Assembly: GCA_951812955.1 (NCBI GenBank)
Contig: OX638340.1
Span: 480,001-544,000, forward strand
Source of the DNA: an uncultured Gemmatimonadota bacterium
Lineage (GTDB): Bacteria; JAAXHH01
Direction: 5' to 3'
DNA: 64,000 nt
Shown here: positions 1 through 64,000 of the stretch, piece after piece
Numbering within the stretch: position 1 is the stretch's first letter
Layout: every line of letters begins with the position of its first letter
Notes under the pieces: generated by a model
Database searches by the model: none
What the model saw: only the letters and a program-made list of their open reading frames with translations
What the model was told of the DNA's origin: nothing
Translations under genes and position numbers: made by a program

Positions 1-1770
1 GACCACCATGCCTATGGGATGGAGCGGCCACCACGGCAGGAGAATCCTTCCGGCCAGGAGCACGAACATCATTACAACGCCGCTCCCGAAAAACAGTACT
101 TCGAGTTCATTGATCCGGGTCGCGTTGTTGACCCAGGTCACGATCAGATCGTAAAACTGGTTGCCCCGCGAGGTGCCCAGGTCGGTCCGCAGGCTCTGGG
201 CACCGTAAGTGTTTCCGGCGTAGATCAGATATCCGATGGAAGCCGTGGCACTCAGGCAGAACGCCGCGGCCACGCTGGCGAAGAGGTGCTTTGCGGAGGG
301 CTGCCGGCGGGAAACTCCATTCTCTGTTTTGTTAATGTACTGTGCCTGCATGCGCTGCCGCCACTGTGATTTGAGCCAGGCCACGTGGGATGTGCCAATC
401 ATGGTGAAGGTGCGCCAGTTGCGCGCGAACCCGTTGGCCATGCCCAGTGTCGTCAAATCGCCGTGGCTGATCTGGGACGAACCGACGATGGCGATGGAGA
501 ACTGGTGGCTGTTGATGGGCAGATCGAGCGTCACCACGCCCGTTTCGGCCACCACGCGCGCCATGGCGATATAGAAGATGAAGAGGAGCGTGATGAACAG
601 GGCCATGATCGGCAGGGACAGACCGGCGGCGTACAGCCAGCACACGATGAAGGACATGCCAAGCAGGAATCCGAAGACGGCGGTCCGATAGGAGAACAGC
701 TCTTCGGCGTCATCCAGCCGGCTGTTTCGGCCCAGCGCGTGCCGCCAGACTTCTTTCAGATGCCTACGGGCCATCCAGAGACCGAAGAGGACGAAGGTCA
801 CCAGCCCGGCGATCGACTGGATACCTGCCAGGCCCCCGTGGATGATGGTTCCGGAGGTGGAACCGATGCCGACCATGTTGAGCGTACCCTCCTGGAGCAC
901 GTAAAAGACCAGGAAGAACCACATGCTGAACAGGACGTCCCGGTTTACGAAGATCAGCAGGCAGAAGACGAAAACGTTCATCTGAAAGTTGAGCCCGGGA
1001 AAAGCGGGATCGAGGGTAAGAACCTGGGAATTCTCCGCCATGATTGGGAACGGGGGCCACGCACCCCAGAATGAGATGATGTTACAGATCATGAAAAGCG
1101 ACATGACCACCGCACCGGACAGGGTCCAGCGGCTGATGCCGTCTGACTTTCCTTCGCCCAGTGAGATCAGGTGCAGGCCCACTTCTCCCAGGGGAAACTG
1201 GAGGCGTTCGTGTTCGACCCACTGTTTCCTGAGCATTACTACAATGCACGCGCCGACAAAAAGCAGGACTAGAATGAAGGAACCCCACCAGAACAGAGGG
1301 GACAGCCAGGCGCCCCAGGGGATGGACTGGCCGGACTGAAGTCCTTCGTAGAACACCCTTACCGCTGCCCGGTCACTGAGGACCAGCCATTCTGGCAGAT
1401 AAGGAAAGAAGATGGATTCCCAGGCATTTTCCGGTGAAGCGAAGTAGAACGGCGCGGTGATCACGACGAGCAGGTACTTGGTCATGGCCTGGTCGGGCAC
1501 CGTGGAGGCGATCCAGCCCATGGCGAAGATGACGATCATTTCATAGAAAGAAAGGGCCCAGGCGGGACGTATCCGACCGATTAAAACGTTGGGCAGCAGT
1601 ACGCAGAACAGGAACGGGACGAGGAACACCGGTGGGAGATGGGTCGCTGCCGGTTCGATTCCGATCTGGTTGGCGGCGTATTCTCCCGTGAAACCGATGA
1701 ATATCGAAAGCGCGGCCCCGATGAGGACCGCGCGGAAGGATCGGATATACTGAAGTATAATCGTTGTCAT
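1..1770 (-). CDS. Large polytopic membrane protein of unknown function. The 3' end is cut by the window edge. Paralog of 28949..30931.
   Basis: The minus-strand frame is open from the ATG at 1768-1770 to the window edge. It is absent from the ORF track because its stop lies outside the window. No frame-0 minus-strand sub-ORFs are listed, which is consistent with one continuous ORF. Translated blocks match the 660-aa protein at 28949..30931: FVGACIVVMLRKQWVEHERL, FYFASPEN, ELFSYRTAVFG and MARVVAETG. The translation is very hydrophobic. Confidence 0.55.
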   Translation of the reverse strand, partial: MTTIILQYIRSFRAVLIGAALSIFIGFTGEYAANQIGIEPAATHLPPVFLVPFLFCVLLPNVLIGRIRPAWALSFYEMIVIFAMGWIASTVPDQAMTKYLLVVITAPFYFASPENAWESIFFPYLPEWLVLSDRAAVRVFYEGLQSGQSIPWGAWLSPLFWWGSFILVLLFVGACIVVMLRKQWVEHERLQFPLGEVGLHLISLGEGKSDGISRWTLSGAVVMSLFMICNIISFWGAWPPFPIMAENSQVLTLDPAFPGLNFQMNVFVFCLLIFVNRDVLFSMWFFLVFYVLQEGTLNMVGIGSTSGTIIHGGLAGIQSIAGLVTFVLFGLWMARRHLKEVWRHALGRNSRLDDAEELFSYRTAVFGFLLGMSFIVCWLYAAGLSLPIMALFITLLFIFYIAMARVVAETGVVTLDLPINSHQFSIAIVGSSQISHGDLTTLGMANGFARNWRTFTMIGTSHVAWLKSQWRQRMQAQYINKTENGVSRRQPSAKHLFASVAAAFCLSATASIGYLIYAGNTYGAQSLRTDLGTSRGNQFYDLIVTWVNNATRINELEVLFFGSGVVMMFVLLAGRILLPWWPLHPIGMVV

Positions 1771-5413: not shown

Positions 5414-6748
5414 TCACTTCATCTGCTCCAGCCTGGTCCGGTACTTGTCATACAGGTCGGTGTGCTTGCTGCTGATATCGACCGGCCGGCCCTGGATGAA
5501 GGCCCGTTCCACCTGGGTCATGATCTCGAGGGGGTCCCCGTCGGTCACGATCAGGGTGGCGTCCTTGCCCGTCTCCAGGGAACCGAGCCTGTCTTCCACC
5601 CCGAGGATACGCGCCGGATAGAGGGTGACGGATTTCAACGCCTCTTCCCTGGGCAGGCCGTAGGCCGCCGCGGTCGCGGCGTGGTAGGGCAGGTTCCGTA
5701 CGTTCGAACCGCCGCCGCCTTCGAGCCATACCCTGCGCTCGCCGATGCAGAAATCCAGGCCGGCTTCATAGAGTTTCAGGGCATTGGTGAACGGCGCGTC
5801 ATAGGCTTCCCAACGGCGAGCGGGCAGGTAATGCACGGCGCCGATGATCACAGGGATCGCGTTTTCCTTCAAGCGGTCCGCCACCCGCCATACGTCCGCC
5901 CCGCCGACCAGGACGATCTTGAGATCTTCGGCGAGGGCCCAGTCGATGGCGGCGTGGATCTGTTTTACTTCAGATGCGTGTACGAGAACGGGAAGTTCTT
6001 TCTTAAGCACCGGGATCATCGACTCCCAGCCGAGGTCGGAGGGATGAAACGGCCCGCCGGTGCGTTCGGCCTCCTTGGCGATCATGTATGCCCTGGCTTC
6101 GCGAAAGGCGTCGCGAAGTCTGGTAAGGGCTTCCCTGCGCGCTTCGACCTGCTTCTCCCGGCTGTCCGCACCGGGAAAATCGAATATGCGGTAGGATGGC
6201 CAGCGTACGTGAAGTCCCACCGTCGATTGCAGCGTCATTTCCTCAGTGGTCCAGCCATCCAGCGCGATAAGGCCGGAAAGCCCAGAGATCAGGCCGCCAC
6301 TGGGCATGGTCAGGGCGGTCAGTATCCCGTTCGCACGGGCAACAGGGAAGTACTCGCTGTCGGGATTCACGGCGGTAACCGCGCGGACGCTCGGGGTAAC
6401 GTCCCCGATTTCCACGTTGTCCTGGGTCGCCCGCACCGAGCTGATCTCGGTCAGTCCCAGGGTCGTCGGCGCGGCGATCAGCCCGGGATACACATGTTTC
6501 CCCGTAACGTCGATGACCAGCGTGTTTTCGGGCAGGGCCAGATCGGTCCCGATACCTGTTATAACGCCGGCATCAAAGAGCACCGTGGCGCCTTCGAGGA
6601 CAGCGCCGCTCACCGTATGCACGGTTCCGCCAGTCAGGGCGATGGGACGAGCCTGCGGCCCGGACGGTTTCTGCTTGGAAGCAGCCGCCTCGTGGACCAT
6701 GGGACCGGATGCGAGACCAGCAATCAACAATACAGCCATCGTTCGCAT
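5414..6748 (-). CDS. Secreted amidohydrolase-family protein lacking the N-terminal HxH metal motif
   Basis: It has amidohydrolase-fold hallmarks: PGLI near the N-terminus and a C-terminal G.LE.GKDA.L.V.DGDPL. Where HxH is expected the sequence reads PGLIAAPTTLG. The most probable start is the ATG at 6746-6748, giving MRTMAVLLIAGLASG, a signal-peptide-like N-terminus. The ORF track extends to 6892 through in-frame tandem repeats. Confidence 0.65.
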   Translation of the reverse strand: MRTMAVLLIAGLASGPMVHEAAASKQKPSGPQARPIALTGGTVHTVSGAVLEGATVLFDAGVITGIGTDLALPENTLVIDVTGKHVYPGLIAAPTTLGLTEISSVRATQDNVEIGDVTPSVRAVTAVNPDSEYFPVARANGILTALTMPSGGLISGLSGLIALDGWTTEEMTLQSTVGLHVRWPSYRIFDFPGADSREKQVEARREALTRLRDAFREARAYMIAKEAERTGGPFHPSDLGWESMIPVLKKELPVLVHASEVKQIHAAIDWALAEDLKIVLVGGADVWRVADRLKENAIPVIIGAVHYLPARRWEAYDAPFTNALKLYEAGLDFCIGERRVWLEGGGGSNVRNLPYHAATAAAYGLPREEALKSVTLYPARILGVEDRLGSLETGKDATLIVTDGDPLEIMTQVERAFIQGRPVDISSKHTDLYDKYRTRLEQMK

Positions 6749-6834
6749 CCAACAAGCGCCTGCGAGTACAGCCATTGTCCGCCTCCAACAAGCGCCTGCG
6801 AGTACAGCCATCGTTCGATTCCAACAGGCGCTGG
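6732..6834. repeat. In-frame 36-nt tandem repeat, about 2.9 copies, spanning the start codon region of the 5414..6748 gene
   Basis: The three units are acagccatcgttcgcatccaacaagcgcctgcgagt, acagccattgtccgcctccaacaagcgcctgcgagt and acagccatcgttcgattccaacaggcgctgg. Each carries an in-frame ATG on the minus strand. In the extended ORF the repeat shows up as the peptide TMAVLAGACW(R/M)R repeated. Confidence 0.85.
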
Positions 6835-6900
6835 AAGACTTCGCCGAACGCCGCGTCCCCTGGATTGTCCGGGGCAATATCACCATCTCCAACCTCCATT

Positions 6901-6945: not shown

Positions 6946-9936
6946 CTACGCCTCCGGCGACGCTTCCCCGGTCTCGGACGAACCTTCGTCCGCATCGGGC
7001 GACTTGAGCAGTTTCTGAATCAGTCTCGTTCTTTCTTCTTCCACTTCTTTCCTCATCTGCCTGTCTTCATCGATATCGAAGTATCTTCTTCCGTCGATCC
7101 AGGTCTGTTCGCATTTCGTATACGTGGACAGGGGATGGCCGTTCCAGATCACAAAATCGGCGTCCTTGCCCGGCTCGAGCGATCCGACCCAGGGATCGAT
7201 GGCCAGTTGCTTCGCCGCGTTGAGCGTGACGAACTTCAGGGCTTCTACCTCGTCGACCCCGCCGTATTTCACCGCCTTTGCCGCCTCGGTGTTCAGTCGC
7301 CGGGCGAGTTCATCGCTGTCGGAGTTGAAGGTGACCAGTACGCCCGCGTCGTGCATCAAGGCCCCGTTGTAGGGAATGGCGTCGTAGGCTTCCACCTTGA
7401 ACGCCCACCAGTCGCTGAAGGCAGAAGCACCCGCGCCGTGGGCGGCCAGTTCGGGTGCGACCTTGTACCCCTCCAGCACGTGTTGAAAGGTGCCGATCGT
7501 AAAACCGAAATCTTCGGCCACCCGAAGGAGCATCAGGATCTCGTCCTGCCGATAGGAATGACAGTGGACGAGACGTTCGCCGGCCAGGATCTCCTGCAGT
7601 GTTTCCAGTTCGAGGTCGCGCCGGGGAGGGACGACGCCGGATTTATCTTCCAGAGCGTTGTACCGGTCCCACGACTGTTGATATTCCCGGGCCGCGCGGA
7701 AACGGTCGCGGATGATCTGTTCGACCCCCATGCGGGTCTGTGGATAGCGGTCGCTGAGAATGCGCCAGTTGCTGCGCTTGACGTTCTCGCCCAGGGCGAA
7801 CTTGATCCCCGCCTTGGCTTCGGAGAATTTGAGTTCCTCGGGGCCTGTACCCCATCTCAGCTTGATGACCTGGTTCTTGCCGCCAATCGGATTGGCCGAC
7901 CCGTGCAATACATTGGCCACGGTGAGACCGCCGGCCAGCTCTCGGTACATGGCGATATCGTAGCTGTCGATGACGTCTCCGATACCCACCTCGGCGGTCA
8001 CGGCCTGCGTGCCCTCGTTGATGCCCTCCATGATGGCCGTGTGCGAATGGGCGTCGATGATGCCGGGCGTGACGTGCTTGCCGGTACCGTCGATTTCTAC
8101 GGCATCCTCTGGCGCTTCGAGGTTCGTACCCACCTCGTCGATTTTCCCCGCGCGGATCAGCACGTCCGCGTTTTCCAGTTTGCCCCGCTCGTCCAGCGTC
8201 CACACCGTGGCGTTCCGCACGACGAAGTATTCCGGCTGCGCTGGCGCGCTTTCTCTACCGAAGGCTCCGGGTGGATACAGCGCCGGCGGTTCGTCTGCCG
8301 CGGCGGACTTCGGAATCTCCAGCGTTACCGCTTCATGCTCCGCGATGCGTTCCGCTGACCAGCTCACGCTTTCGCCGCCGGGGCGGACCCCCCGGCCCGA
8401 GATCCGGTCTCCCTGGACAGAACCCGAAAAACGCCAAACACCGGCTTCACCCAGCGCTTCATGCTCAATGCTGAATGCGATTCGGGTATCGTCCAGGTCC
8501 ATGCGGACCGTCTTGATCGTGGTACCGTCTTTGTCGATGGTGCCCTTCGGCGAACCCGCCGATCCTTCAATGGCCAGCGACAGGCTGTCTCCCTGCAGGA
8601 CGATCAGCCACGTCCCCCGTGGATCGACTACCGGGCGTGGGGTGACCACGTGACGGTTACCCGCGACCCACACATCCTGCACGCGCACGCCCTCAGCGAA
8701 CAGGGGGCCGTCGGTAATCGTCATGTTGGCCAGTTTCCCGGACTCCAGCGTACCGAGCTGGCGGCTAATGCCAAGCATGGATGCAGGGGTCGTAGTCAAC
8801 GAGGCCAGCGCGGCTTCATAATCCAGCCCGTGCTCGATCGCTTCCCGCACCCTTTCGTGAAAGTCGGCGCTTTTACCCAGCCTTGTACTGCTCAGCGCAA
8901 TGGGGATCCCGGCCCGGTGCAATTGGCCCGGATTCCCGGGCGCCAGGTCCCAGTGCCGCAGTTCTTCCAACGTGACGTCCACGGCGTCTTCCGGCGTGGA
9001 TACGGAGAGATCTTCCGACCGTGGAAAATCGAGCGGCAGGATGACCGGCGCGCCCACTTCGCGCACCGCGTCCAGCATGCGGTATTCATGGCCGCTGCCC
9101 CGGACGAGGAATCGAAGTCCGAATTCATCCGCCAGACTGGCGGCACGCAGAAAGGCGTGGTCGTCATCGACACTCATGAGAACGGCCTGGCCGCGGGCGA
9201 TCACCCCGTCCAGCGCCGCCAGCGCGTCATTGTCCTCCGGGCGTTCCTGCTGGGGATTCTCTGCGAAAGCCGCATGGGCGTCCCGGTACCATTGCGCGTC
9301 CAGGATCGTCTGCCGTATGAGGGCCGCGACGCCCATCATGGAGGCCGGATAGGTGCGGTTCCGGTTTCTCTTCATGCGCAGATGCTGGAACACATCGCGC
9401 TTCAGTATGTTCTCGTTGGGCGATCCGGAACCCAGGTTCACCACCGCGCTGCTGCCAGAGAAAACTCCCCGATCGGCTACGACCATGGCCGCCGCGAAAC
9501 CGGATTTACGCAGCCGGGCGAGTTCCTGCTCACTGACGCGGTATGCTTCGCCGGCGGCGCGTTCAGGACGGACACCGGGATTCCAGTGGGTCGATCCCGT
9601 GGACTTCTCCGCTTCCTCTTCCGGCAGGCCGGCCTGTGTGAACATCTCGATCAATCCGGGATAAATGGTCTTGCCGGAATAGTCCCACCGCTGGGCGTCC
9701 GGTGGAATGTCGACGGACGCTCCGGCTTCCACGATCAGCCCGTCCCGGACGATCACGACGCCCCTGTTGATCACGAGATCGGGCCGGACGTAAATCCGGG
9801 CGTCCTCCAGGGCGTGGACGCGTGAAGGATTCTCCCGCAGTCCCGTCTGCGGCGCCGTCTGCTGGGCTTCCGCGGCAAGGGTGACCGCCCCGGACAGCAG
9901 CATGGCCTGGATCATGATCCAACAGGTTTTCAGCAT
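6946..9936 (-). CDS. Large secreted two-domain amidohydrolase-family protein. The first domain lacks HxH; the second has it.
   Basis: Start chosen at the ATG at 9934-9936 (MLKTCWIMIQAMLLSGAVTLAAEA), which is signal-like and preceded by GGAGGAG. The first amidohydrolase-like domain has YPGLIEMFTQ with no HxH and a C-terminal GKLANMTITDGPL. The second domain has TPGIIDAHSHTAIMEG and a C-terminal GKDADFVIWNGHPL. Confidence 0.7.
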   Translation of the reverse strand: MLKTCWIMIQAMLLSGAVTLAAEAQQTAPQTGLRENPSRVHALEDARIYVRPDLVINRGVVIVRDGLIVEAGASVDIPPDAQRWDYSGKTIYPGLIEMFTQAGLPEEEAEKSTGSTHWNPGVRPERAAGEAYRVSEQELARLRKSGFAAAMVVADRGVFSGSSAVVNLGSGSPNENILKRDVFQHLRMKRNRNRTYPASMMGVAALIRQTILDAQWYRDAHAAFAENPQQERPEDNDALAALDGVIARGQAVLMSVDDDHAFLRAASLADEFGLRFLVRGSGHEYRMLDAVREVGAPVILPLDFPRSEDLSVSTPEDAVDVTLEELRHWDLAPGNPGQLHRAGIPIALSSTRLGKSADFHERVREAIEHGLDYEAALASLTTTPASMLGISRQLGTLESGKLANMTITDGPLFAEGVRVQDVWVAGNRHVVTPRPVVDPRGTWLIVLQGDSLSLAIEGSAGSPKGTIDKDGTTIKTVRMDLDDTRIAFSIEHEALGEAGVWRFSGSVQGDRISGRGVRPGGESVSWSAERIAEHEAVTLEIPKSAAADEPPALYPPGAFGRESAPAQPEYFVVRNATVWTLDERGKLENADVLIRAGKIDEVGTNLEAPEDAVEIDGTGKHVTPGIIDAHSHTAIMEGINEGTQAVTAEVGIGDVIDSYDIAMYRELAGGLTVANVLHGSANPIGGKNQVIKLRWGTGPEELKFSEAKAGIKFALGENVKRSNWRILSDRYPQTRMGVEQIIRDRFRAAREYQQSWDRYNALEDKSGVVPPRRDLELETLQEILAGERLVHCHSYRQDEILMLLRVAEDFGFTIGTFQHVLEGYKVAPELAAHGAGASAFSDWWAFKVEAYDAIPYNGALMHDAGVLVTFNSDSDELARRLNTEAAKAVKYGGVDEVEALKFVTLNAAKQLAIDPWVGSLEPGKDADFVIWNGHPLSTYTKCEQTWIDGRRYFDIDEDRQMRKEVEEERTRLIQKLLKSPDADEGSSETGEASPEA

Positions 9937-10008
9937 GATTCTCCTCCTGCAGAAAAGATTCAGATACTGATTAAAACCCAAAGCAGCACAATAACTTACT
10001 AACATTCA

Positions 10009-10548
10009 CTACATTAATTGTTCAATGACTTTGTCCAGTGCCTGGTCGATCTGGGCAGCGAGTGCTTTCCCGTCCAACCGGCCGATGGGATGATCGATCT
10101 CGACGATGGGATAGCCACCGTTTCCCAGTTGTTCGGCCATCACCCGTGCGGTGTGTGTGAAGTTGGACGTACAAAGCAGTGCGGCCGGTAGTCCAAGGTG
10201 CTCGAGCATGAGGACATCGTGCATGCTGCACGCGCTGCAGGACCCTCAGTCTCCGACTCCCACGAGTGCGAAATTGCAGCGCCTTACGATAAGATCGGTC
10301 ATCTCTTCTGACAGCACGCGACTTGCGCTTTCCTTGGTGTATTCAACCGAATCCACAGGATGGGCCAGGCGAATCGTTAACTGCTCGAAGAGGCCGCGCA
10401 GGATCACGTCGGAATTGGGCTTGCCGTTTCCCACCAGCGCGGCTGTGACATGCTGAACACCCAGGGGCCGCAGCGCCATGCGAAGGGTCGATGTGTCGGC
10501 CGAGGCCGTGGGATCAACGAGGGTTACCGACATTTTCACACGCTCCAT
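10009..10548 (-). CDS. UGSC-motif selenoprotein candidate. An in-frame TGA at 10246..10248 is read as selenocysteine. The ORF track splits it into 10246..10548 and 10009..10224.
   Basis: The upstream ORF ends ...RCNFALVGVGD-TGA. The same frame continues GSCSACSMHDVLMLEHLG... for 78 more codons to the stop at 10009. This yields a U-G-S-C redox-type motif. GC-rich palindromes lie directly 3' of the UGA: CUGCA-GCGCG-UGCAG and CGUGCA-GCA-UGCACG. Confidence 0.5.
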
Positions 10549-10583: not shown

Positions 10584-11603
10584 TCATTGCCTGGTGGTGC
10601 AGGTTGAGATCCAGCGCGTAACCGGCCGCGACCCTACGCCTCTGCCCGAACCCAGCCACGGCGGAATGATGGCGGAATGTCCGCCGGCCGATCCTCCAGC
10701 GAACATGATCCATATGCCATCCCGGTCCGGCGTCAGCGTGACGGGTTCTTCGGGACCCAGGTCGTCGTGCCTGCCCGTTGCCTGGATTTCACGTCCCGTG
10801 GCCGCCGTGCGTTCAAAAAGCGCTTCACGGATCATTTCACGAGTCCACCCGGCCCGGCTGAATACCGATCGGTGTTCCGGGCAGATGATGAATACGATGG
10901 CTGCGCCGGCGTAGTTGGTCGTCCGGGCGACGCGCGCAAACGAGTCGATCAGGCCATCGGGCTGGTCGTTAACGTGGTCGGCTACGGAGTGGGGTGCTTC
11001 GGCGGCAAGGACCGTGACGGCGTTTTTGTCCGGGGAAACGCCCAGTTCTTCGCCCTGGGTCGGCCATCCGGCGCAACGGGCTTCCGGCAGACAGTACGCA
11101 ATGCGTCCGGCATGGGCTATCGTCGCCCGGTCCAGGTCACCCGGCACACTGCCGACACCGTTTCGTATGACCAGGTTCAAGGCACGCCCCAGCGTCAGAT
11201 TGGACCGGTTGCCCGCACCGAGCACGGCCGTTTCCGGATTGAAACGCAACGACTCCACAACGGGACCGTGGACGATCGCCAGGGGGGCGGCGCCGCCAGT
11301 GCTGGCCGACGGTCCGACGATATTGAACGCCGGGTCCAGGATGGCCTCGACCGTGGCAAGGACGACAGGGAACAGCGAATCAGTGCATCCCGCCATAACC
11401 GCGTTCGCCGCCACCAGTTCGGCTGAGATGGATCTGTTCCGCTCAGGCACCGTGCCGATTTCACGGTCCGGTTCGATGCCGTGCGCATCGAGCATCCGAT
11501 CAATGCGATCGCGGACGGGCGGCACCACGGGAAGGCCATCCGACCAGCCCCGGTCGAAGGCGTATTCTATGGCATCAATTTCGGATTCGACCTGGTGGGC
11601 CAT
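10584..11603 (-). CDS. Hypothetical protein, about 340 aa, Cys-containing, function unknown
   Basis: A long ORF. Its start is set at the ATG at 11601-11603 (MAHQVESEIDAIEYAF...), just after the upstream cytochrome gene stop. I recognise no family. It sits between the cytochrome c gene and the selenoprotein candidate on the same strand, with gaps of 8 and 35 nt. Confidence 0.45.
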   Translation of the reverse strand: MAHQVESEIDAIEYAFDRGWSDGLPVVPPVRDRIDRMLDAHGIEPDREIGTVPERNRSISAELVAANAVMAGCTDSLFPVVLATVEAILDPAFNIVGPSASTGGAAPLAIVHGPVVESLRFNPETAVLGAGNRSNLTLGRALNLVIRNGVGSVPGDLDRATIAHAGRIAYCLPEARCAGWPTQGEELGVSPDKNAVTVLAAEAPHSVADHVNDQPDGLIDSFARVARTTNYAGAAIVFIICPEHRSVFSRAGWTREMIREALFERTAATGREIQATGRHDDLGPEEPVTLTPDRDGIWIMFAGGSAGGHSAIIPPWLGSGRGVGSRPVTRWISTCTTRQ

Positions 11604-11611
11604 TAGCAGCG

Positions 11612-12004
11612 TTACCTGCCGTAGTAGTTTTCCAGATAGGTAAGAATGGTTTCTTCGGTTTTCGAATCGAATTTCTTCAATCCCTTTTCCGCCTGCATCC
11701 AACGGATAGCATCAAGCCACTCCGCGCGGTTCGCCCGATAGGAACGGATGATCTGGGTAGGATGGCATTGGGCGCATTCCCTTTCCACGACGGGGTAGCC
11801 GTCGCCCATGATCAGCCGGGTCCGGTGGTTCAGTTCCAGGCCCGTTCGCGGGTCGAACATCGTTACGGGCTTGGCCGCCTCGGCCCTGGCATTGGCCTGT
11901 GCGACTTTCGATCGCTCCGCTTCGTAGTAGATCAGACCGACTACCAGGACATCCAGGATGATGACGAAGGCAAACTGGCCAAGTACGCGCAGAAACGAAT
12001 TCAT
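11612..12004 (-). CDS. Membrane-anchored monoheme cytochrome c family protein
   Basis: A 130-aa protein with an N-terminal hydrophobic helix (FAFVIILDVLVVGLIYY) and a single CxxCH heme-binding motif (CAQCH). Confidence 0.55.
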   Translation of the reverse strand: MNSFLRVLGQFAFVIILDVLVVGLIYYEAERSKVAQANARAEAAKPVTMFDPRTGLELNHRTRLIMGDGYPVVERECAQCHPTQIIRSYRANRAEWLDAIRWMQAEKGLKKFDSKTEETILTYLENYYGR

Positions 12005-17858: not shown

Positions 17859-19640
17859 TCAATATCTTCTCGGCCAGGGCATCTTGGGCGGACCGAAATC
17901 CGGCTCGCCCAGCAAGGGGGTCGACAGGCAGTAGAATCCGTGGTTGGCGAACAGCCAGACCAGGTTGCGGTCGTATTCCACATAGATGCCATGGGTCAGA
18001 TTGCCCAGTGCGTAGTCCGGGGTCCGGGATGGATCGAATTTCGGCACGAAGAAAGCGGTGATTTTCGGGTCGGAAAGGTCGGAGACATCGAAAACCTGAA
18101 CGCCGGCGTTGTAAAAGGCATAGAGAAGGATGTCTTCCTTGGGTGTACCGGGCTGGGTATAATAGCCGCTTCGTTTCGGACCGAAACTCCCGCGCCGCTG
18201 CACGAAATCCGTGAAGGGGGCGTCCGCGGGCGGTACCGGTCGGGGCAACGTGCCAAGCAGCCTGGGATTGGCGGGATCATTCACGTCGATCATGAAGATG
18301 TCTTTATACGGCTCCCAACCGTCCTCGTTCAGGGGATATCCGGAAAAATAGACCACACCGGTCTTTTCCATCTGCGTTACGTTGATGTAATCTCCCTCCG
18401 TGCCTGCTACGCTCGGGGGAAAGTTCAGGTGCCCCAGCGCCTTGATATCTGCCGGGTCCGATAGGTCCAGCGCGTAGAACCCGAGGCCGCCCATGGCGGC
18501 GTATCCGTACCTGCCGCCTTCTTCAACCGGTTTGGGCATGAAAATCGACATGCGGGCGCCGAACCAGGATGTCCGGTTGCCGGCGCGGGGATTGGCCCGG
18601 TAGGCGGCTTCATCTTCTGGATTCCCAAGTCTCTGGCCAGGTACGTTGAACTGGCTGATAAACACCGGATTGGCCGGGTCGGACATGTCCCAGGCCTGGT
18701 AGCCGGCCGAGTACAGGTCGCTCGGGTATTCGGTAAGCGCGTATTCCGCACTGGGCGCCGCGGCAACGAACATGTACTCGCCGCCGTGATAGGCGGGAAT
18801 ATCCCGAACGCCGGATCCCTGTTGCTGCCCGACAGGCGCATCGGGGTTTTCGTAGTCGGTGGTTCGCTCCGCCAGCAGCGTCCAGTCCGCCGGCAGGGGG
18901 CCGTTCATTTCATATACCTTGAATCCCTTGAGGTGATTGGCGTTTCGAATGGCTTCCACCTTGTCGGGTTCCGTGCGCTTGTCGTTGAGGACGCCGAAGC
19001 GGCGGATCTCGAAGGCCTGGACCATGACGTACTTGTCCAGGTCCTCGTTCCACTGGATGGACGCGGCGCCGAACATGTCGCCTTCGTCATAGGGGTTGAC
19101 CTCTTCGCCCGGTCCTTCCCCGGTCCAGGTGCTTCCCTTCTCGTGTACGACCTTCAAATCCTTCGGATCGGTGATATCATAGATTTTCAGGGCGCGGCGG
19201 ACGTACTGGTACATGTATCGTCGGCCGTCGAAATCGACGATGTTCTGCCAGGTATGGAACGGTTCGACCGTGATCGGGTAGTAGGCCTCGACGGTCATGT
19301 CCTTCGCGTACTCGTTCGTATCCCAGTAGTCTAGCTGGCCTTCAAATGGTTTGGATTCATGCTGATGGGGCGTGGCCGCCGGGTAGATGAATCGGCCGGT
19401 TTCCGGATCCATGCCGTAACCGGCGGGATCGGGTTCGGGTGGCGTACGGTCCTCCGCCAGCGCGTCGGCCCGGATGACGTATTCGTCGGTAACGGGCGGC
19501 GGTGCAGGCGTCTCACTGTCTGGGGAAGTACCGCAGGCCAGGGCCGCACTCAGGCAAATAACAATTCCAATGAGTGTAGTCTTGTCGCGTAAATGGCGAT
19601 GGTTCGATACATCAGCGTGGCGTTTTGGATTCATTAGCAT
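17859..19640 (-). CDS. Lipoprotein with LVIVD-type beta-propeller repeats, function unknown
   Basis: A 593-aa protein with a lipobox (LSAALACG). It has repeated D.SDPANP...G motifs, for example DLSDPADIKALG and DVNDPANPRLLG. Confidence 0.5.
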   Translation of the reverse strand: MLMNPKRHADVSNHRHLRDKTTLIGIVICLSAALACGTSPDSETPAPPPVTDEYVIRADALAEDRTPPEPDPAGYGMDPETGRFIYPAATPHQHESKPFEGQLDYWDTNEYAKDMTVEAYYPITVEPFHTWQNIVDFDGRRYMYQYVRRALKIYDITDPKDLKVVHEKGSTWTGEGPGEEVNPYDEGDMFGAASIQWNEDLDKYVMVQAFEIRRFGVLNDKRTEPDKVEAIRNANHLKGFKVYEMNGPLPADWTLLAERTTDYENPDAPVGQQQGSGVRDIPAYHGGEYMFVAAAPSAEYALTEYPSDLYSAGYQAWDMSDPANPVFISQFNVPGQRLGNPEDEAAYRANPRAGNRTSWFGARMSIFMPKPVEEGGRYGYAAMGGLGFYALDLSDPADIKALGHLNFPPSVAGTEGDYINVTQMEKTGVVYFSGYPLNEDGWEPYKDIFMIDVNDPANPRLLGTLPRPVPPADAPFTDFVQRRGSFGPKRSGYYTQPGTPKEDILLYAFYNAGVQVFDVSDLSDPKITAFFVPKFDPSRTPDYALGNLTHGIYVEYDRNLVWLFANHGFYCLSTPLLGEPDFGPPKMPWPRRY

Positions 19641-28948: not shown

Positions 28949-30931
28949 CTACCAGCCGTCCACGATATGGCCCGCGCCCGGAAACCAGGCCGCGTCCACC
29001 AGAAAGGTCAGAAAGACGCCGAGGACATAGCCCGCGAGAATGCCAATAAACAGGGGTTGTGCCTTGCGGTACAGCGATACGCCGCCGAGACGCAGGATCA
29101 CCGTCTTGATCAGCCAGACGATCAGAATGGAAAAGAAAGCCATGTCGGCCGCGTAGGTGGTCACGATCCCGAATCCCACGGGATGGAGGGGCCAGAAATG
29201 CAGCCGGTGATGGGCCCAGATCAGGAATCCCGAGATCAAAATCCCGTTCAACACCATGGTCAGCTGAGGTTGTGTCATGGCCTGAGGATTGGTCAGGAAG
29301 GTCTCCAACTGGGCCCAGTATCCGCTCGCGCCGGACTGAAAACCGCCGGCCTGGAGCTGGGACGCGCCCATGTCATACCCCAGGTACAGCGTGTACACGA
29401 TGGCCGTCATGAATCCGATGAAGAGTGAAAGGGCAATGGCGCCGAAAACGCCCCGGCCCACGCCGCCCATGACGTCCCCCACCTTGGCGGCGTGCGCCAT
29501 CGAACACATCCCGAGCGTCCGCCAGTTGCGCGTAAAGGTCTGGCAGAGCCACATCCCCGTGATCGTGCGGGCATTGATGTGCTCCGACCCGACGAACCGG
29601 AACGTGATCTCGTTGGCGCTGTTGTACGGCAGGTCCAGGGACGCCAGGCCGGTCTCGGCCACTACGCGGGTCACGCCGATGTACAGAACCAGCAGCACGA
29701 ACATCATGAGCATCACGACCCAGAGCGTCATGCCCGCGCTCCACAGGAGGAAAACCATGTAAAGCGAACCGCCGGCGAAAGATAGGACGGCCGTGCGATA
29801 GGAAAAGAACTCCCGTGTATCATCGATTTCCGGCGCTTTGCCGAATGCCTTCCGAAACACGTCACGGATATGCCTGCGTGCCATCCACAGACCGAACAGC
29901 ACGAAAATGAAAAAGCCGGACAGATGTTGAAAGTGCATCATCTCGAGAGGACCGGGGACGCCGACCCGCGTCATCACGCCCTGTTGAACGATGCGGATGA
30001 GATAGAACAACCAGACGCTGAGCAGCACCTCCACCCTCGTGAAGTACGCCACCCCGATCAGCAGGAAATTCAGGCGGACCTGGATCGGGTGGAAGGCTTC
30101 ATACAGGGTCAGGGGAAAGGCGTGCCCCGCGCCGAAAGGGATGGCGGGGAACAGATCGAAGAAGCTGAACATATTCCAGGTCATGATAAACAGCGTGATG
30201 CCGAACCCCCACCAGAACAGGCGCACGCGGGCAATCCTCGGGAACAGGGCCGTTTCTTCGGCCCCGTCGACCAGCGTCAATGGCACCTGGGCTAGCGGGA
30301 AGGTCAGCCGTTCGTGTTCCACCCACTGCTTCCGCAGGATGACCATGATAGACGCGCCGACCAGGAAGAGGGCGATGTAGAATGTTATCCACCAGAACAT
30401 GGGCACCCACCAGATTTGCCATCGGATGGTTGTTCCCGAATACACGCCTTCATAGAATTGGTTCAGACCGCCCAGGTTGTCCCGCACGACCAGCCAGGAA
30501 GGAAGGTAGTCGAGGAAAAGTTCCGCCCAGCGGTTTTCGGGGTTGGCGTAGTAGAAAGGACCGCTGATGATCGAGACCGCGTAATTGCTGAAGGCCCATC
30601 CGGGGATGGCGGACGCCGTGAAGACCAGGAAGAAGATCACGATCAGCTCCTGCCGGCTGAATGGACGGCCGTAACCCGCCTTTTTCAATACCGGGTTGAC
30701 CAGGAGTACCATCAGCAGGAAGGGCAGCAGCGCGGCGACGGGCAGGTGGGTGACCGTGATGAAGGATCCGCGCGTGACGAATTCGGAGGAGAGCGACCAG
30801 AGCGTCAGTAGGACGGTGAAGACGCATCCTATGGCCACGGCCCGTAGGGTAAGGCCGGCGGAAACGGGTTGCTTTACAGGCGGAGGCACGGTGGCCTGTC
30901 GGCCGGTCTGGGGCGATGAGACAGTGGGCAT
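28949..30931 (-). CDS. Large polytopic membrane protein of unknown function, 660 aa. Paralog of 1..1770.
   Basis: At least 12 predicted TM segments. It shares conserved blocks with the partial gene at the window start. Confidence 0.6.
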   Translation of the reverse strand: MPTVSSPQTGRQATVPPPVKQPVSAGLTLRAVAIGCVFTVLLTLWSLSSEFVTRGSFITVTHLPVAALLPFLLMVLLVNPVLKKAGYGRPFSRQELIVIFFLVFTASAIPGWAFSNYAVSIISGPFYYANPENRWAELFLDYLPSWLVVRDNLGGLNQFYEGVYSGTTIRWQIWWVPMFWWITFYIALFLVGASIMVILRKQWVEHERLTFPLAQVPLTLVDGAEETALFPRIARVRLFWWGFGITLFIMTWNMFSFFDLFPAIPFGAGHAFPLTLYEAFHPIQVRLNFLLIGVAYFTRVEVLLSVWLFYLIRIVQQGVMTRVGVPGPLEMMHFQHLSGFFIFVLFGLWMARRHIRDVFRKAFGKAPEIDDTREFFSYRTAVLSFAGGSLYMVFLLWSAGMTLWVVMLMMFVLLVLYIGVTRVVAETGLASLDLPYNSANEITFRFVGSEHINARTITGMWLCQTFTRNWRTLGMCSMAHAAKVGDVMGGVGRGVFGAIALSLFIGFMTAIVYTLYLGYDMGASQLQAGGFQSGASGYWAQLETFLTNPQAMTQPQLTMVLNGILISGFLIWAHHRLHFWPLHPVGFGIVTTYAADMAFFSILIVWLIKTVILRLGGVSLYRKAQPLFIGILAGYVLGVFLTFLVDAAWFPGAGHIVDGW

Positions 30932-41190: not shown

Positions 41191-44100
41191 CTAACACTCA
41201 GCCACGGCTCGTGGATTCAACCCCTCCAACAACGTGTCGATCGTCTGACTGATGGCGGTCTCAGACTGCAAGGTCTCGACCGGAATCGACACGTGCAATC
41301 CTGCCTCGATCCTGTTTCGTAACTCCACGGCCATGAGGGAATCCACGCCCAGGCTGCGCCAGGTCTGCCCGGTCTCCACGCTCCCTGGGTCCACTTCCAA
41401 GATCCGGCTGATCGCATCGGTCACGAATTCCTCGATGTAGTCGCGCATTATGTCAGGGGATAGCGCGCTCAGATCGGCTTTCGATAGGGGTGGAATCGCC
41501 CGTGTCGCCTGCGCTCCGCGAACATCCGGTGGCAGGAACCGGGCAAGAAGCGTATCTGCTTTTGGCTCAGTCGTGGGGATTACGCCGACGCGGTGGACAT
41601 CGCGACGGAGTATTCGATCAAGCAGCGCGCCTGCCTCATCGGGCGGGATCGATCGCAGGCCCTGCCGCCTCATACGATCGACGGCTCGTTCGTCGGTCAT
41701 CATGCCCGTATCTTCCCAGGGCCCCCAGTTTACTGTCGTCACCGGCAGACCCTCCTGACTCCTGAGGTCCGCCAGGCCGTCGAGAAACGCGTTCGCAGCG
41801 GCGTAGGATGCCTGTCCGGCCGTACCGAGCAGGGAGGCCACCGACGAAAAGAGGACGAAGAGGTCCAGTTCGCGGTCGCGGGTAATCGCATGCAGGTTCC
41901 ACGCGCCGACCGTCTTGGGTTCGAGTACCCGGCGGAACCTTTCCGCATTCTGGGTGAGCAAAATGCCATCGTCCAGCACGCCGGCCCCGTGGAAGACGCC
42001 CCTGACCGGTCCGTGCTCGATTTCCAGGCCTGCCAAGAGACCTTCCATCGCATCACGCTCGGTCGCATCGGCCTGAACGTACTTCACTTTGCCGTTGGGA
42101 TCACTTTCCAGTGACGTATCCACATGATGTCTTCGCCCCGTCACGACGACCAGGCCGGCTCCCCGGTCGAGTAGCCAACCCGTCAGGAAGCGGCCGATCC
42201 CACCCGCGCCGCCCGTGACGAGGTAGGTTCCGCCCGGACGAATGATCGGATCATCTTCTCCCAGGGCAACAGGGACGGACGCACCGTCGTCTACGAGCAC
42301 CAGTTTGCCCATGTGCCGCGCCTGCGACATGAACCGGAAGGCATCCCGCGCCTCGGCAAGCGGGTATGCATGGTACGGCAGGGGACGTATGCTGCCATCC
42401 GCAGCCAAGTCGGCGATTTTCTGTAGCATGGCGCCCGCACGGTCCGGCTGTTCCTCGATGAACTGTGCAAGATCGATGGGATGATAGGATTTGTTGCGGT
42501 CGAACCGGTTGAGATCGATGAGTCCATGGTTCAGCACATCGGTTTTGCCGATCTCAATGAAACGTCCGTGGGGCGCAAGTACGGCCAGAGAAGCCATCAT
42601 GGCGGGACCAGACAGTGTGTTCAGGACGATATCCATTCCCTTCCCGTCCGTCTTCTCAATGATCTCTTCTGCGAAGTCCAGGGAACGGGAATCCATCACA
42701 TGCGAAACGCCTATTTCCCGCAGAAAGGCTCGTTTTTCATCAGATCCGGCCGTGGCAAACACCTCGGCCTCTGCCTGACGGGCGAGTTGAAGAGCGGCCA
42801 GCCCCACCCCTCCTGTCGCGTTGTGTACAAGAACGCGGTCGCCGGCGGATATTCCGCCACGTACCACGAGCCCGAGGTATGCCGTCAGGAAGGCCACGGG
42901 CAGCGTAGCGGCTTCTTCGATACCCAGGCTATCCGGCTTCCGGACGACCAGGGCGGCCTTCGCGGTCACGTAACCGGCCATGGCCATCGGCACCATGCCC
43001 ATGACCAAATCACCGACTTCCACAGAGTCAGTCCGGCTTCCGCGTGCAACCACCTCGCCGACGCATTCCCAACCGAAGGAAGGTGGACGCGGCAATGAGG
43101 CTCGCAGCATGCCGAGGGCGGTAAGTACGTCCCTGAAGTTCAGCGCGGTTGCCTGCATGCGGATGACGACCTCGTCCGGTGCTGGTTCACGCTCCCGCTC
43201 CGACACAAAGTGGAGATCGTCAATCGAACCGGGCGTCGACTGTGTAAGTCTGTAACTGGTATTAAAATATGAAGATGCGGAAACACGCTTCGCTTTGGTG
43301 TTTGACAGGTCTAACGGAACGAGACGACGGGTATACAGCTCGGTCTCCCGTACCGCGATCTCGCCGGTCAGTTTGTCCGCGGCCACGATACAGGCGAGAT
43401 GTTCCAAATCGATCTCGTCGGTTCCGGCTGGAAGGTCGATCATCGCACAGTTCAACTCGGGGTGCTCCTGCGCGGCGACCCGTCCGCATCCCCAGATCGT
43501 CCCGAGTTCCGGCTTCGACCGGTCGCCATCAACCACGGACTGGGCACCCGCCGTAATCAACCTCAGGCGGTACGACAGATCGGGACTGTCCAGCACCGCC
43601 CTGACCATTTCAAAGGATTCCAGCGCGGGGCCGGTATGTCGGTTCGACCGCCTGGCGCCTTTTCCAGTCCAGATTCCCACGACGCCGACCGGTTCCCCGG
43701 ATTCGGATCTCACTGAGCCCAGTCTGCCGGCGAGGGCGTCGGCCGGGCTTGCCTTGCACTCACTGGACGCATCGATGAATTCACTCTTCCCGCCGCGTCG
43801 AGCCAGGGCATTAGCCAGGCCGGTTCCGAGTCGCGGGTCCTCCGTAATCACGTACCAGTGCGATGTTGTGCCGGGTTCCACCTGGTCTTCCGGGATTGGC
43901 ATGGCCATCCAGGCTTCCCGGTAGATTCCCTGTGGGTTATCAAGGCCATGCCGGCCTGCGCCTGTCCTGAACAGACCCCCTCCTGCCCGGAACAGGGACA
44001 CGCCTTCCAGTTGTACCACAGGAAGGCCCTTGTCATCTACGAGGTACACATCGGCCAGCAGCCCACCGTCACTTGATTTCTCCCTCAGTCTGGCGTATGC

Positions 44101-62873: not shown

Positions 62874-63866
62874 ATGAGCTACCAGCTAACGGATAGTTTC
62901 GGCCGAACGATCAACAACCTGCGGGTATCCGTAACGGATCAGTGCAATTTCCGCTGTATTTACTGCATGCCCGAAGTTGGGATGATCTTTCAGCCGCGGG
63001 AAGAGATCCTGACCTTCGAGGAGATCACCCGTTTCGTCGGGATCGTAACGGAACTCGGCATATCCAAGCTGCGGTTGACCGGCGGGGAGCCTACCGTTCG
63101 AAAGGATCTTCCGGTGCTGTTGCGCATGCTGGCGGCTGTCCCCGGCGTCCAGGACATGGCCATGACGACCAACGGGTTCCTGCTGAAGAAGATGTCGCGG
63201 GACATGTTCGAGGCGGGGTTGCCGCGGATCAACGTCAGCATGGATTCGCTGGACGAAGAGAAATTCAAGGAGATGACCCGCCGGGACGTCCTGCACAAGG
63301 TGCTGGATGGACTCGATGAGGCGACCCGGTATTTTCAGTTGCCGATCAAGATCAACGTGGTCGCCATGAAGGGATACACCGAAGACGAACTGCTGGATTT
63401 CGCGGAATTGGCGCGGACCGGCCCCTACCAGGTACGTTTCATCGAGTTCATGCCCCTCGACGCAGACCGGTCGTGGACCCGGGACCAGGTGCTGGACGGC
63501 GCTGAGATCATCGAACGGATCGGGGCGCGGTGGCCCCTGGACGCGGTGAAGCGTCCGGACCAGCGGGAGCCGGCCGACCTGTTCCAGTTCAGAGACGGCA
63601 AGGGCGAGATCGGTCTCATCGCATCGGTGAGCGAACCCTTTTGCAGCAGCTGCAACCGCATACGCATCACGGCGGACGGCAAGCTTCGGACCTGCCTGTT
63701 CTCGATTAATGAAACGGACATCAAGGCGTTGCTGCGAGGTGGCGCTTCCGATGGCGATATTGCCGAGACAGTCATCGAAGCGGTGCGCCACAAGGAGCCG
63801 GGGCATCACATCAACGAACCCGACTTCGTCCAGCCGGAACGGACCATGTCCTCCATCGGCGGATAG
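62874..63866 (+). CDS. moaA: GTP 3',8-cyclase (molybdenum cofactor biosynthesis protein A), radical SAM
   Basis: It has the N-terminal radical-SAM cluster CNFRCIYC and the C-terminal second cluster CSSCNRIRITADGKLRTC. The GGEPT motif is present. Confidence 0.9.
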   Translation: MSYQLTDSFGRTINNLRVSVTDQCNFRCIYCMPEVGMIFQPREEILTFEEITRFVGIVTELGISKLRLTGGEPTVRKDLPVLLRMLAAVPGVQDMAMTTNGFLLKKMSRDMFEAGLPRINVSMDSLDEEKFKEMTRRDVLHKVLDGLDEATRYFQLPIKINVVAMKGYTEDELLDFAELARTGPYQVRFIEFMPLDADRSWTRDQVLDGAEIIERIGARWPLDAVKRPDQREPADLFQFRDGKGEIGLIASVSEPFCSSCNRIRITADGKLRTCLFSINETDIKALLRGGASDGDIAETVIEAVRHKEPGHHINEPDFVQPERTMSSIGG

Positions 63867-64000
63867 CACGAAAGCAGTCATACAATACAAAAGTAGCGCC
63901 TGTGTGAAGGCCACTTTAACCGGATTGAACGAATTCAGAACCTGAGCGTATGTCAGAACCTGAATTGTCCGGGCGCACGAGCGTCTAACTCGGCGCCCGG

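What the first reader, a model, noticed from the sequence alone, without database searches (positions are those of the whole stretch)
10009..10548. An in-frame TGA joins two ORFs into a UGSC-motif selenoprotein candidate with SECIS-like palindromes
On the minus strand, the 100-codon ORF 10246..10548 ends ...RCNFALVGVGD-TGA. The same frame then continues with no further stop: GSCSACSMHDVLMLEHLGLPAALLCTSNF..., down to the stop at 10009. The ORF track sees that tail as a separate 71-aa ORF starting 8 codons after the TGA.

Reading the TGA as selenocysteine gives a single 179-codon protein. The redox-type motif U-G-S-C sits exactly at the junction. This matches the UGSC-containing selenoprotein family that I recall from marine-metagenome selenoproteome surveys.

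Directly 3' of the UGA, the mRNA carries two overlapping GC-rich hairpins. One is CUGCA-GCGCG-UGCAG at +7 to +21. The other is CGUGCA-GCA-UGCACG at +14 to +28. Bacterial SECIS elements sit at about this distance.

Standard gene callers would annotate this as two small hypothetical proteins.
Basis: partly seen in the sequence, partly recalled or inferred. Interest (0 to 1): 0.75.

Follow-up and report, generated by a model that had tools for sequence, protein, structure and literature searches.

The report
UGSC-family selenoprotein gene, mis-annotated as truncated
The in-frame TGA is most likely a real selenocysteine codon in a member of the known but uncharacterised "UGSC" selenoprotein family; it is followed by a small conserved RNA hairpin and sits next to a conserved unknown partner gene, so the gene is real but not a new kind of thing.

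Summary
On the minus strand, ORF 10548..10246 ends in TGA (10248-10246), and the same frame runs on to TAG at 10011-10009. The reading as a UGSC selenoprotein is supported. Pfam PF24696 (UGSC) matches across both halves (E 8e-42). Cys homologs carry an invariant VGVGD-C-GSCS, with that Cys aligned to the TGA. The TGA is kept in all 13 species-level relatives and at 67 of 83 family sites. dN/dS is equal before and after it (0.19 and 0.20). The four codons just after it (G-S-C-S) never change in amino acid but use 2-5 synonymous codons each. The other is a by-product of repeated UGCA. No Sec machinery lies in the 64 kb, so that test stays open. The family has been known since 2007, with function unknown. 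Extras found here: public annotation truncates this gene to a 95-aa hypothetical protein; a 339-aa partner without a Pfam or NCBIfam match adjoins UGSC genes in 76 of 80 loci; the predicted fold is Rossmann-like, not thioredoxin-like.

The parts
10009..10533 (-). UGSC-family selenoprotein CDS: 174 aa from the ATG at 10533, plus the TAG stop at 10011-10009.
   Evidence: Pfam PF24696 at E 8e-42 across both halves. Homolog starts align with MSVTLVDPT. The 95-aa product from this ATG is on record. dN/dS is 0.19 upstream and 0.20 downstream of the TGA.
10246..10248 (-). In-frame UGA read as selenocysteine: the U of the U-G-S-C motif.
   Evidence: It aligns with the invariant Cys of CGSC homologs. 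TGA is kept in 13 of 13 close relatives and at 67 of 83 family sites.
10218..10232 (-). SECIS-type hairpin CGUGCA-GCA-UGCACG (mRNA positions 17-31, counting the U of UGA as 1). It has 6 bp and a 3-nt loop with an invariant G at position 23 (window 10226).
   Evidence: It pairs in 67 of 67 Sec forms. Three pairs show changes on both sides, and 0 of 500 shuffles reach the observed covariation score. It is broken in Cys forms. Synonymous sites are constrained only in Sec forms.
10226..10240 (-). It is not a conserved element. It arises from two copies of the self-complementary UGCA in the Cys-Ser codons.
   Evidence: Two of its pairs form in only 28-40 of 67 sequences. There are no compensatory changes, and it scores no better than shuffles. 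Its pairing probability in this mRNA is about 0-0.01.
10584..11603 (-). Conserved partner gene: 339 aa from the ATG at 11603 plus its stop, ending 50 nt upstream of the UGSC start. It has no Pfam or NCBIfam match. Invariant features include GW.DGLPVVPP, NAVMAGC, two His, and GG...FS..IP.W.

Best explanation
Window 10533..10009 (minus strand) is a single gene for a 174-aa selenoprotein of the UGSC family.

How the UGA is read. During translation, the UGA at 10248-10246 is decoded as selenocysteine. The signal is a small SECIS-type hairpin in the coding sequence that starts 13 nt after the UGA: CGUGCA-GCA-UGCACG, with a loop G. By analogy with the E. coli system (established knowledge), SelB carrying GTP and Sec-tRNA(Sec) binds such a hairpin and delivers Sec to the ribosomal A site. 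That the gene is one translated unit, and that the hairpin is under RNA-level selection only in Sec-encoding members, is shown here by comparative analysis. That the inserted residue is Sec and that SelB binds the hairpin are inferred.

What the protein does. Sec96 and Cys99 (U-G-S-C) sit at the end of strand beta3 and the N-terminus of helix alpha3 of a Rossmann/flavodoxin-like alpha/beta domain. This placement comes from a model of a homolog that is 36% identical. It suits a selenol/thiol pair that cycles through a selenenylsulfide. The protein most likely acts as the redox-active subunit of a two-protein enzyme, together with the 339-aa partner encoded immediately upstream. This is inferred from gene neighbourhood, from fusions of the partner to a CxxC thioredoxin-like domain, and from a weak, recurrent similarity to the UxxC-containing GrdB/PrdB reductase subunits. 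The substrate is unknown.
For: Family and Sec/Cys pairing:
- Pfam UGSC matches at E 8e-42 over residues 10-178.
- All 15 diverse family members match PF24696 and NF041046.
- Cys homologs have an invariant VGVGDCGSCSA with the Cys on the TGA.
- There are 67 TGA and 16 Cys codons across 80 loci.

One translated unit:
- TGA is kept in 13 of 13 relatives at 70-94% identity.
- dN/dS is 0.19 upstream and 0.20 downstream, with third-position differences dominating on both sides.
- Codons +1 to +4 after the UGA encode G, S, C, S in 67 of 67 sites while using 4, 4, 2 and 5 synonymous codons, including Ser AGY<->TCN switches. These codons lie before the ATG of the supposed second ORF.

SECIS hairpin:
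- Helix 17-22/26-31 pairs in 100% of cells.
- Pairs 19:29 (UA<->GC), 20:28 (GC<->CG) and 18:30 (GC->CG) change on both sides.
- The covariation score is 0.333 against a shuffle mean of 0.080 (0 of 500 shuffles reach it). Versions with the 3' partners slid by 1-3 columns score 0.081 or less.
- The same helix is broken in Cys forms (6-8 of 16 paired at three positions).
- The loop Ser codon is AGY in 67 of 67 Sec forms, and wobble G18 is fixed in 66 of 67. The equivalent sites vary freely in Cys forms.

Not a reassigned code: TGA ends 19 of 40 gene calls in the window.

Protein function:
- The AF2 model of homolog P0150 has pLDDT 91.5 and a beta-alpha-beta Rossmann-like topology, with the motif between E91-97 and H100-115.
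- The partner is adjacent in 76 of 80 loci.
- P0087 and P0108 are fusions of a Trx-like CPTC domain to the partner.
- 11 of 15 members hit the GrdB model, and 7, 5 and 4 hit the related selenoprotein-B, GrdF and PrdB models; best E is 3.5e-5.

Literature: UGSC-containing protein is an established selenoprotein family (PMC1976440, PMC2398784, PMC13188914).
Against: - No selA, selB, selD or tRNA-Sec lies in the 64-kb window or in the 13 related loci. The rest of the genome could not be searched, so the decoding trait is unverified for this organism.
- The NCBIfam equivalog score is 119.8 bits, just under its 125-bit cutoff.
- The hairpin is small, at -6.3 kcal/mol on its own. Its ensemble probability in this mRNA is only 0.11-0.35 because of competing folds, and the region folds no better than shuffles.
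- In this clade the loop reads G-C-A, whereas the other 53 Sec forms have G-U-N.
- The compensatory changes trace to few independent events: essentially one clade split, one single-sequence swap, and two G-U wobbles.
- The functional model is indirect. The fold comes from a Cys homolog and not from this protein. The GrdB similarity is far below family thresholds (16 against 602 bits). A direct profile alignment to GOS GrdB fragments gave only 4.8 bits.
Confidence: 0.88

Rival explanations
1. The TGA is a genuine stop. The gene is a pseudogene or a truncated 95-100-aa protein, and the downstream frame is a decaying remnant.
For: Gene callers and one NCBI record annotate exactly that: a 95-aa 'hypothetical protein', MCY4545669.1. 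No Sec machinery is seen in the window.
Against: The downstream 78 codons evolve under the same purifying selection as the upstream 95 (dN/dS 0.20 against 0.19). They have no stop or frameshift in 14 genomes that have diverged to 70% identity. The TGA itself is kept at 67 sites in three phylum-level groups.
Confidence: 0.02
2. It is a split gene. Two separate polypeptides are made, with the second starting at the NUG codon 8 codons after the TGA (ATG here, GTG, TTG or CTG elsewhere).
For: Codon +8 is always a potential start (ATG 16, GTG 21, TTG 23, CTG 7). The ORF lister calls a 71-aa ORF from it.
Against: The seven codons between the TGA and that NUG would be untranslated. Yet codons +1 to +4 are invariant G-S-C-S at the protein level with freely varying synonymous codons, and they contain the family's signature motif. 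The U and G of the NUG are explained by the hairpin (U26 pairs with A22, G27 with C21). No Shine-Dalgarno sequence precedes it. Cys homologs are single chains. The 71-aa product is not on record.
Confidence: 0.02
3. The UGA is read through, but with an amino acid other than selenocysteine. That could be a TGA reassignment (Trp or Gly codes), Cys insertion, or near-cognate suppression.
For: Sec machinery is unverified for this genome. One database entry (P0143) translates the homologous codon as Trp.
Against: TGA is the commonest stop in the window (19 of 40 genes), and several TGA-terminated products reach the end of their Pfam models. Homologs have Cys, not Trp or Gly, at this site. A hairpin with a loop G at SECIS distance is conserved only in TGA-bearing members, as expected for SelB-dependent decoding.
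Confidence: 0.06
4. The TGA is a sequencing or assembly error for TGC or TGT.
For: A single-base difference from a Cys codon.
Against: The same TGA occurs in 13 independently assembled relatives and in 53 further sites in other phyla. The identical 95-aa truncated product is on record from independent sources.
Confidence: 0.01

Closest known systems
UGSC-containing protein / 'UGSC family (seleno)protein' (Pfam PF24696, NCBIfam NF041046). First noted in Hyphomonas neptunium and in Olavius symbiont and ocean metagenomes (PMC1976440). One of the most abundant selenoprotein families in the GOS data: 255 Sec forms and 21 Cys forms (PMC2398784).
   Same: Full-length profile match. Identical GD-U-GSC-S signature. 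Sec/Cys pairing at the same column. A predominance of Sec over Cys forms (67 to 16 here). Size of about 175-185 aa.
   Different: This clade (MAGs labelled Gemmatimonadetes, Latescibacterota or just 'bacterium') is only about 35% identical to named members. It falls 5 bits short of the NCBIfam equivalog cutoff, which may be why its members are annotated as 95-aa hypotheticals. Its SECIS loop reads GCA, not GUN. The literature guessed a thioredoxin-like fold, but the AF2 model of a family member is Rossmann/flavodoxin-like.
[quoted passage not shown]
   Same: A stem-loop inside the coding sequence. It starts 13 nt after the UGA, where the E. coli fdhF minimal element sits 11 nt after it (own knowledge). 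It has a small apical loop with an invariant G. It is conserved only where the codon is UGA.
   Different: It is very short: 6 bp and a 3-nt loop, or 5 bp and a 5-nt loop AGCAU. No bulged U is evident. In this clade the base after the loop G is C, not U. No extended lower stem is conserved across clades: pairs 4:37 and 5:36 hold in only 16-26 of 67.
Selenoprotein B subunits of glycine, sarcosine, betaine and D-proline reductases (GrdB, GrdF, GrdH, PrdB; TIGR01917, TIGR01918, TIGR04483; Pfam PF07355).
   Same: The UxxC motif follows a hydrophobic beta-strand. There are recurrent weak profile hits to the Sec-bearing C-terminal region (model positions 320-411 of 431) in 11 of 15 UGSC members. They work together with a second, separately encoded subunit.
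   Different: Scores are far below the family cutoffs (16 against 602 bits). The UGSC protein is less than half the length. The partner shows no detectable similarity to GrdE or PrdA, or to anything in Pfam or the PDB. The organisms are aerobic or marine lineages, not amino-acid-fermenting clostridia.

Membership tests
UGSC family (Pfam PF24696) | Full-length match to the family profile above the gathering score | tested here: met
   143.7 bits against a cutoff of 25, E 8e-42. Residues 10-178 match profile positions 2-170 of 172. Same result from the M6 start.
UGSC family (seleno)protein (NCBIfam NF041046, equivalog) | Score at or above the curated equivalog cutoff | tested here: not met
   119.8-119.9 bits against a cutoff of 125, with Cys substituted for Sec. 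It is by far the top hit at E 9e-35, but marginally below the cutoff.
UGSC family | U/C-G-S-C motif at the conserved position, with TGA aligned to Cys of homologs | tested here: met
   VGVGD-TGA-GSCS aligns with the invariant VGVGDCGSCS. Of 83 sites, 67 carry TGA and 16 carry TGC or TGT.
Bacterial selenoprotein gene (Sec-decoded UGA) | The reading frame continues and stays under purifying selection 3' of the UGA | tested here: met
   dN/dS is 0.20 downstream and 0.19 upstream. Codons +1 to +4 are invariant in amino acid but synonymous-variable.
Bacterial selenoprotein gene (Sec-decoded UGA) | A SECIS stem-loop immediately 3' of the UGA with a G in a small apical loop | tested here: met
   Helix 17-22/26-31 is 100% paired with 3 covarying pairs, and G23 is invariant. 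It is broken in Cys forms. Caveat: thermodynamic stability is unremarkable.
Bacterial selenoprotein gene (Sec-decoded UGA) | selA, selB, selD and tRNA-Sec (selC) present in the same genome | not testable with these tools
   None in the 64-kb window (ARAGORN, Rfam, Pfam scans of 40 gene products, tblastn) or in the 13 related loci.
Bacterial selenoprotein gene (Sec-decoded UGA) | Selenium physically incorporated at the UGA position | not testable with these tools
   This needs 75Se labelling or mass spectrometry.
Thioredoxin-fold oxidoreductases (the fold proposed for UGSC proteins in PMC2398784) | Thioredoxin fold, with the UxxC/CxxC motif at the N-terminus of helix alpha1 after strand beta1 | tested here: not met
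   [not shown]
Selenoprotein B reductase subunits (GrdB/PrdB; TIGR01917, TIGR01918, TIGR04483) | Profile match above the family cutoff | tested here: not met
   16.4 bits against a cutoff of 602. Weak hits recur in 11 of 15 members, best E 3.5e-5. Sec aligns with Sec in one GOS GrdB fragment, but at only 4.8 bits. At most a remote relationship.

The most novel reading that the evidence does not exclude
The UGSC selenoprotein and the 339-aa protein with no Pfam or NCBIfam match encoded beside it form a widespread, so far undescribed two-subunit selenoenzyme. It would occur in Gemmatimonadota-like sponge/marine MAGs, Chloroflexota/Dehalococcoidia and Actinomycetota. The UGSC subunit would be a minimal, free-standing relative of the Sec-bearing domain of GrdB/PrdB-type reductases. 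It would use its Sec-x-x-Cys pair to reduce a substrate or a catalytic Cys held by a partner whose fold has no solved counterpart. If so, one of the most abundant orphan selenoprotein families in aquatic metagenomes would gain a testable function and a defined partner.
Probability: 0.3. Interest if true: 0.6.

Novelty: new member of a known kind. Interest (0 to 1): 0.33.

Why it matters
For this genome, the result corrects an annotation. A gene recorded publicly as a 95-aa hypothetical protein is a 174-aa selenoprotein, which implies that this lineage (MAGs labelled Gemmatimonadetes or Latescibacterota) decodes UGA as Sec.

For the field, the family itself is not new. Three by-products may still be useful:
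- A compact SECIS hairpin supported by covariation, whose stem changes are coupled to amino-acid changes (Cys/His to Ala/Ala).
- A near-universal partner gene, which offers a handle on the unknown function of a very abundant orphan selenoprotein family.
- A predicted Rossmann-like rather than thioredoxin-like fold, with a hint of kinship to GrdB/PrdB.

Tried and rejected
I dropped energy as evidence and used comparative analysis instead.
- An extended lower stem (1-6/35-40) holds in the close clade but is not conserved across clades. I did not include it in the element.
- Rfam at gathering thresholds found only four tRNAs.
- Looking up the source contig by exact protein failed twice.
I modelled a Cys homolog instead.
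- PDB sequence searches found nothing for either protein.
- The GOS paper's 'UGSC/Unknown_1 fusion' could not be compared with the partner, because that figure panel is held only as an image.
- The direct profile alignment to GOS GrdB fragments was too weak to count (4.8 bits).
- A scan for other read-through TGA sites in the window found none that were credible.

Full report
OBSERVATION. A 100-codon ORF ends ...RCNFALVGVGD-TGA, with the TGA at 10248-10246. The same frame continues GSCSACSMHDVL... for 78 more codons to TAG at 10011-10009. The ORF lister reports the tail as a 71-aa ORF whose ATG is the eighth codon after the TGA. Both palindromes are present. The second, CGUGCA-GCA-UGCACG, lies at +14..+28 after the UGA as stated (window 10232-10218). 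The first, CUGCA-GCGCG-UGCAG, lies at +6..+20, one base off. The likely true start is the second ATG at 10533. It has a GGAG 9 nt upstream, homologs begin at the aligned position, and the exact 95-aa product from that ATG is on record from gene callers.

FAMILY. With Cys substituted for the stop, the fused protein matches Pfam PF24696 'UGSC family' over residues 10-178, covering both halves, at E 8e-42 and 143.7 bits against a cutoff of 25. NCBIfam NF041046 'UGSC family (seleno)protein' is the top hit at 119.8 bits, just under its equivalog cutoff of 125. Six full-length Cys-containing homologs align end to end, with an invariant VGVGD-C-GSCSA whose first Cys falls on the TGA. A profile search later returned 2,419 family members, many of them named 'UGSC family (seleno)protein' by NCBI.

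IS THE TGA DECODED? A scan of one genome per species returned 80 loci. Thirteen are close relatives at 70-94% protein identity, from MAGs labelled Gemmatimonadetes, Latescibacterota or simply 'bacterium', several of them complete chromosomes of 3.7-3.9 Mb. All 13 carry TGA at this codon. Across all loci there are 83 family sites: 67 TGA, 15 TGC and 1 TGT.

In the close clade the alignment is ungapped. The 95 codons upstream and the 78 codons downstream of the TGA evolve alike. Mean pS is 0.41 and 0.38, mean pN is 0.108 and 0.106, and median dN/dS is 0.19 and 0.20. Third-position differences dominate on both sides. That excludes a pseudogene or a truncated protein.

The split-gene idea fails on the seven codons between the TGA and the downstream ATG. 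Codons +1 to +4 encode G, S, C, S in 67 of 67 sequences. They use 4, 4, 2 and 5 different synonymous codons, including Ser AGY<->TCN switches. These codons are therefore translated.

TGA is otherwise the commonest stop in the window (19 of 40 gene calls), so this is not a TGA-reassigned genome. A scan for other TGA sites with coding-like sequence on both sides found no other credible case in the 64 kb.

THE SECIS. Energy alone says little. The 72 nt after the UGA fold no better than shuffles (z = +1.72). The conserved hairpin has an ensemble probability of only 0.11-0.35 in this mRNA, and on its own it is worth -6.3 kcal/mol.

The comparative evidence is clear. Counting the U of UGA as position 1, helix 17-22/26-31 forms a standard pair in 67 of 67 Sec-encoding sites. 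On 49 distinct sequences it is 100% paired. Three of its six pairs change on both sides:
- 19:29 is UA in 32 and GC in 17.
- 20:28 is GC in 31 and CG in 17.
- 18:30 is GC in 47 and CG in 1.
Two sequences add G-U wobbles. The covariation score is 0.333 against a shuffle mean of 0.080, and 0 of 500 shuffles reach it. Versions with the 3' partners slid by 1-3 columns score 0.081 or less.

The stem swap is coupled to amino-acid changes: Cys (UGC) and His (CAC) in two clades become Ala (GCC) and Ala (GCC) in Actinomycetota. These double changes amount to few independent events, namely one clade split and one single-sequence swap, so the statistics should not be over-read.

Two controls strengthen the case. 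In the 16 Cys-encoding sites the helix is broken, with 7, 8 and 6 of 16 paired at three positions. Synonymous sites are also constrained only in Sec forms. The loop Ser codon is AGY in 67 of 67. Wobble base G18 is fixed in 66 of 67, and the one exception is compensated. The same sites vary freely in Cys forms.

G23 in the loop is invariant. The loop is G-U-N in 53 sequences and G-C-A in the window's clade (14 sequences). [quoted passage not shown] The hairpin here starts 13 nt after the UGA, compared with 11 nt for the minimal E. coli fdhF element (own knowledge).

Two of its pairs hold in only 28-40 of 67 sequences, there are no compensatory changes, and it scores no better than shuffles. It exists because UGCA, present twice in the Cys-Ser codons, is self-complementary.

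SEC MACHINERY. ARAGORN and Rfam find four ordinary tRNAs and no tRNA-Sec in the window. Pfam scans of 40 gene products found no SelA, SelB or SelD domains. The 13 related loci hold no tRNA. This is 64 kb of a genome of about 3.8 Mb, so absence here means little. This is the main untested point.

WHAT IS KNOWN. 'UGSC-containing protein' was introduced in 2007 as 'a selenoprotein of unknown function' (PMC1976440). It was among the most abundant selenoprotein families in the Global Ocean Sampling data, with 255 Sec forms against 21 Cys forms (PMC2398784). A 2026 review still lists it, under NF041046, among families whose functions 'remain largely uncharacterized' (PMC13188914). The finding is therefore a new member of a known family.

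Public annotation of this clade misses it. The exact 95-aa N-terminal fragment is on record from a 3.81-Mb contig. A 90%-cluster mate is NCBI MCY4545669.1, '95 aa, hypothetical protein [Gemmatimonadetes bacterium]'. The 71-aa C-terminal ORF is not on record. The sub-threshold NCBIfam score may explain the miss.

HOW IT MIGHT WORK. This part is inference.

(c) Remote kinship. Eleven of 15 diverse UGSC members give weak hits to the GrdB model, and 7, 5 and 4 hit the generic selenoprotein-B, GrdF and PrdB models. The best E is 3.5e-5, and the hits map to the Sec-bearing C-terminal region. One GOS GrdB fragment aligns Sec on Sec and Cys on Cys, but at only 4.8 bits. This is a lead, not a result.

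VERDICT. This is a genuine, currently mis-annotated UGSC-family selenoprotein gene, and one of the two proposed hairpins is a SECIS element supported by covariation. It is ordinary in kind. The conserved partner gene and the fold assignment are the parts worth following up.

Noticed in passing
[not shown]
   Followed up: partly
P0087 and P0108 (477 aa): These are natural fusions of an N-terminal thioredoxin-like domain (CPTC motif) to the partner-family domain. They suggest the partner takes electrons from a dithiol or selenothiol module.
   Followed up: partly
window 10009-10533 (-); NCBI MCY4545669.1: Public records annotate this gene and its clade mates as a 95-aa 'hypothetical protein' that ends at the Sec codon. 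The window protein scores 5 bits under the NCBIfam NF041046 cutoff, which may be why annotation pipelines miss the selenoprotein here.
   Followed up: yes
window 10224-10226 (-) and the same position in L001-L013: The SECIS loop reads G-C-A in all 14 sequences of this clade. The 53 Sec forms from other phyla read G-U-N. The U after the loop G matters for SelB binding in E. coli (own knowledge). This may reflect a co-evolved SelB in this lineage.
   Followed up: no
L015, sites at 4662 and 6289: One Chloroflexi MAG carries two UGSC paralogs about 1.6 kb apart. Both have in-frame TGA and the conserved hairpin.
   Followed up: no
P0143: One database protein has Trp at the Sec position (GDWGSCSSCSVH). 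A Sec-form gene was evidently translated with a TGA=Trp code table by its source.
   Followed up: no
window 11612-12004 (-): A 130-aa ORF with an N-terminal hydrophobic segment and a CAQCH (CxxCH haem-binding-type) motif lies directly upstream of the partner gene. It is conserved at 84-100% identity in all 13 close-clade loci but absent from the other phyla. It has no Pfam hit. It may be the first gene of the same operon in this clade.
   Followed up: partly
window 6946-10005 (-) and 5414-6892 (-): Two amidohydrolase-family genes (1019 aa and 492 aa) follow the UGSC gene on the same strand. They are syntenic in 11 of 13 close relatives. The 1019-aa product more likely starts at the ATG near 9936 (preceded by AGGAGG, then a signal-peptide-like MLKTCWIMIQAML) than at 10005.
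   Followed up: no
window 1-1770 (-) and 28949-30931 (-): There are two paralogous DUF6785 proteins (E 9e-100 and 2e-115), the second also carrying DUF6784. Function is unknown.
   Followed up: no
window 41191-47478 (-): A 2095-aa ORF, the largest gene in the window, was not scanned against any family library.
   Followed up: no
window 17859-19640 (-) and 62886-63914 (-): Two sizeable ORFs (593 aa and 342 aa) with coding-like composition have no Pfam hit at E <= 1e-4.
   Followed up: no
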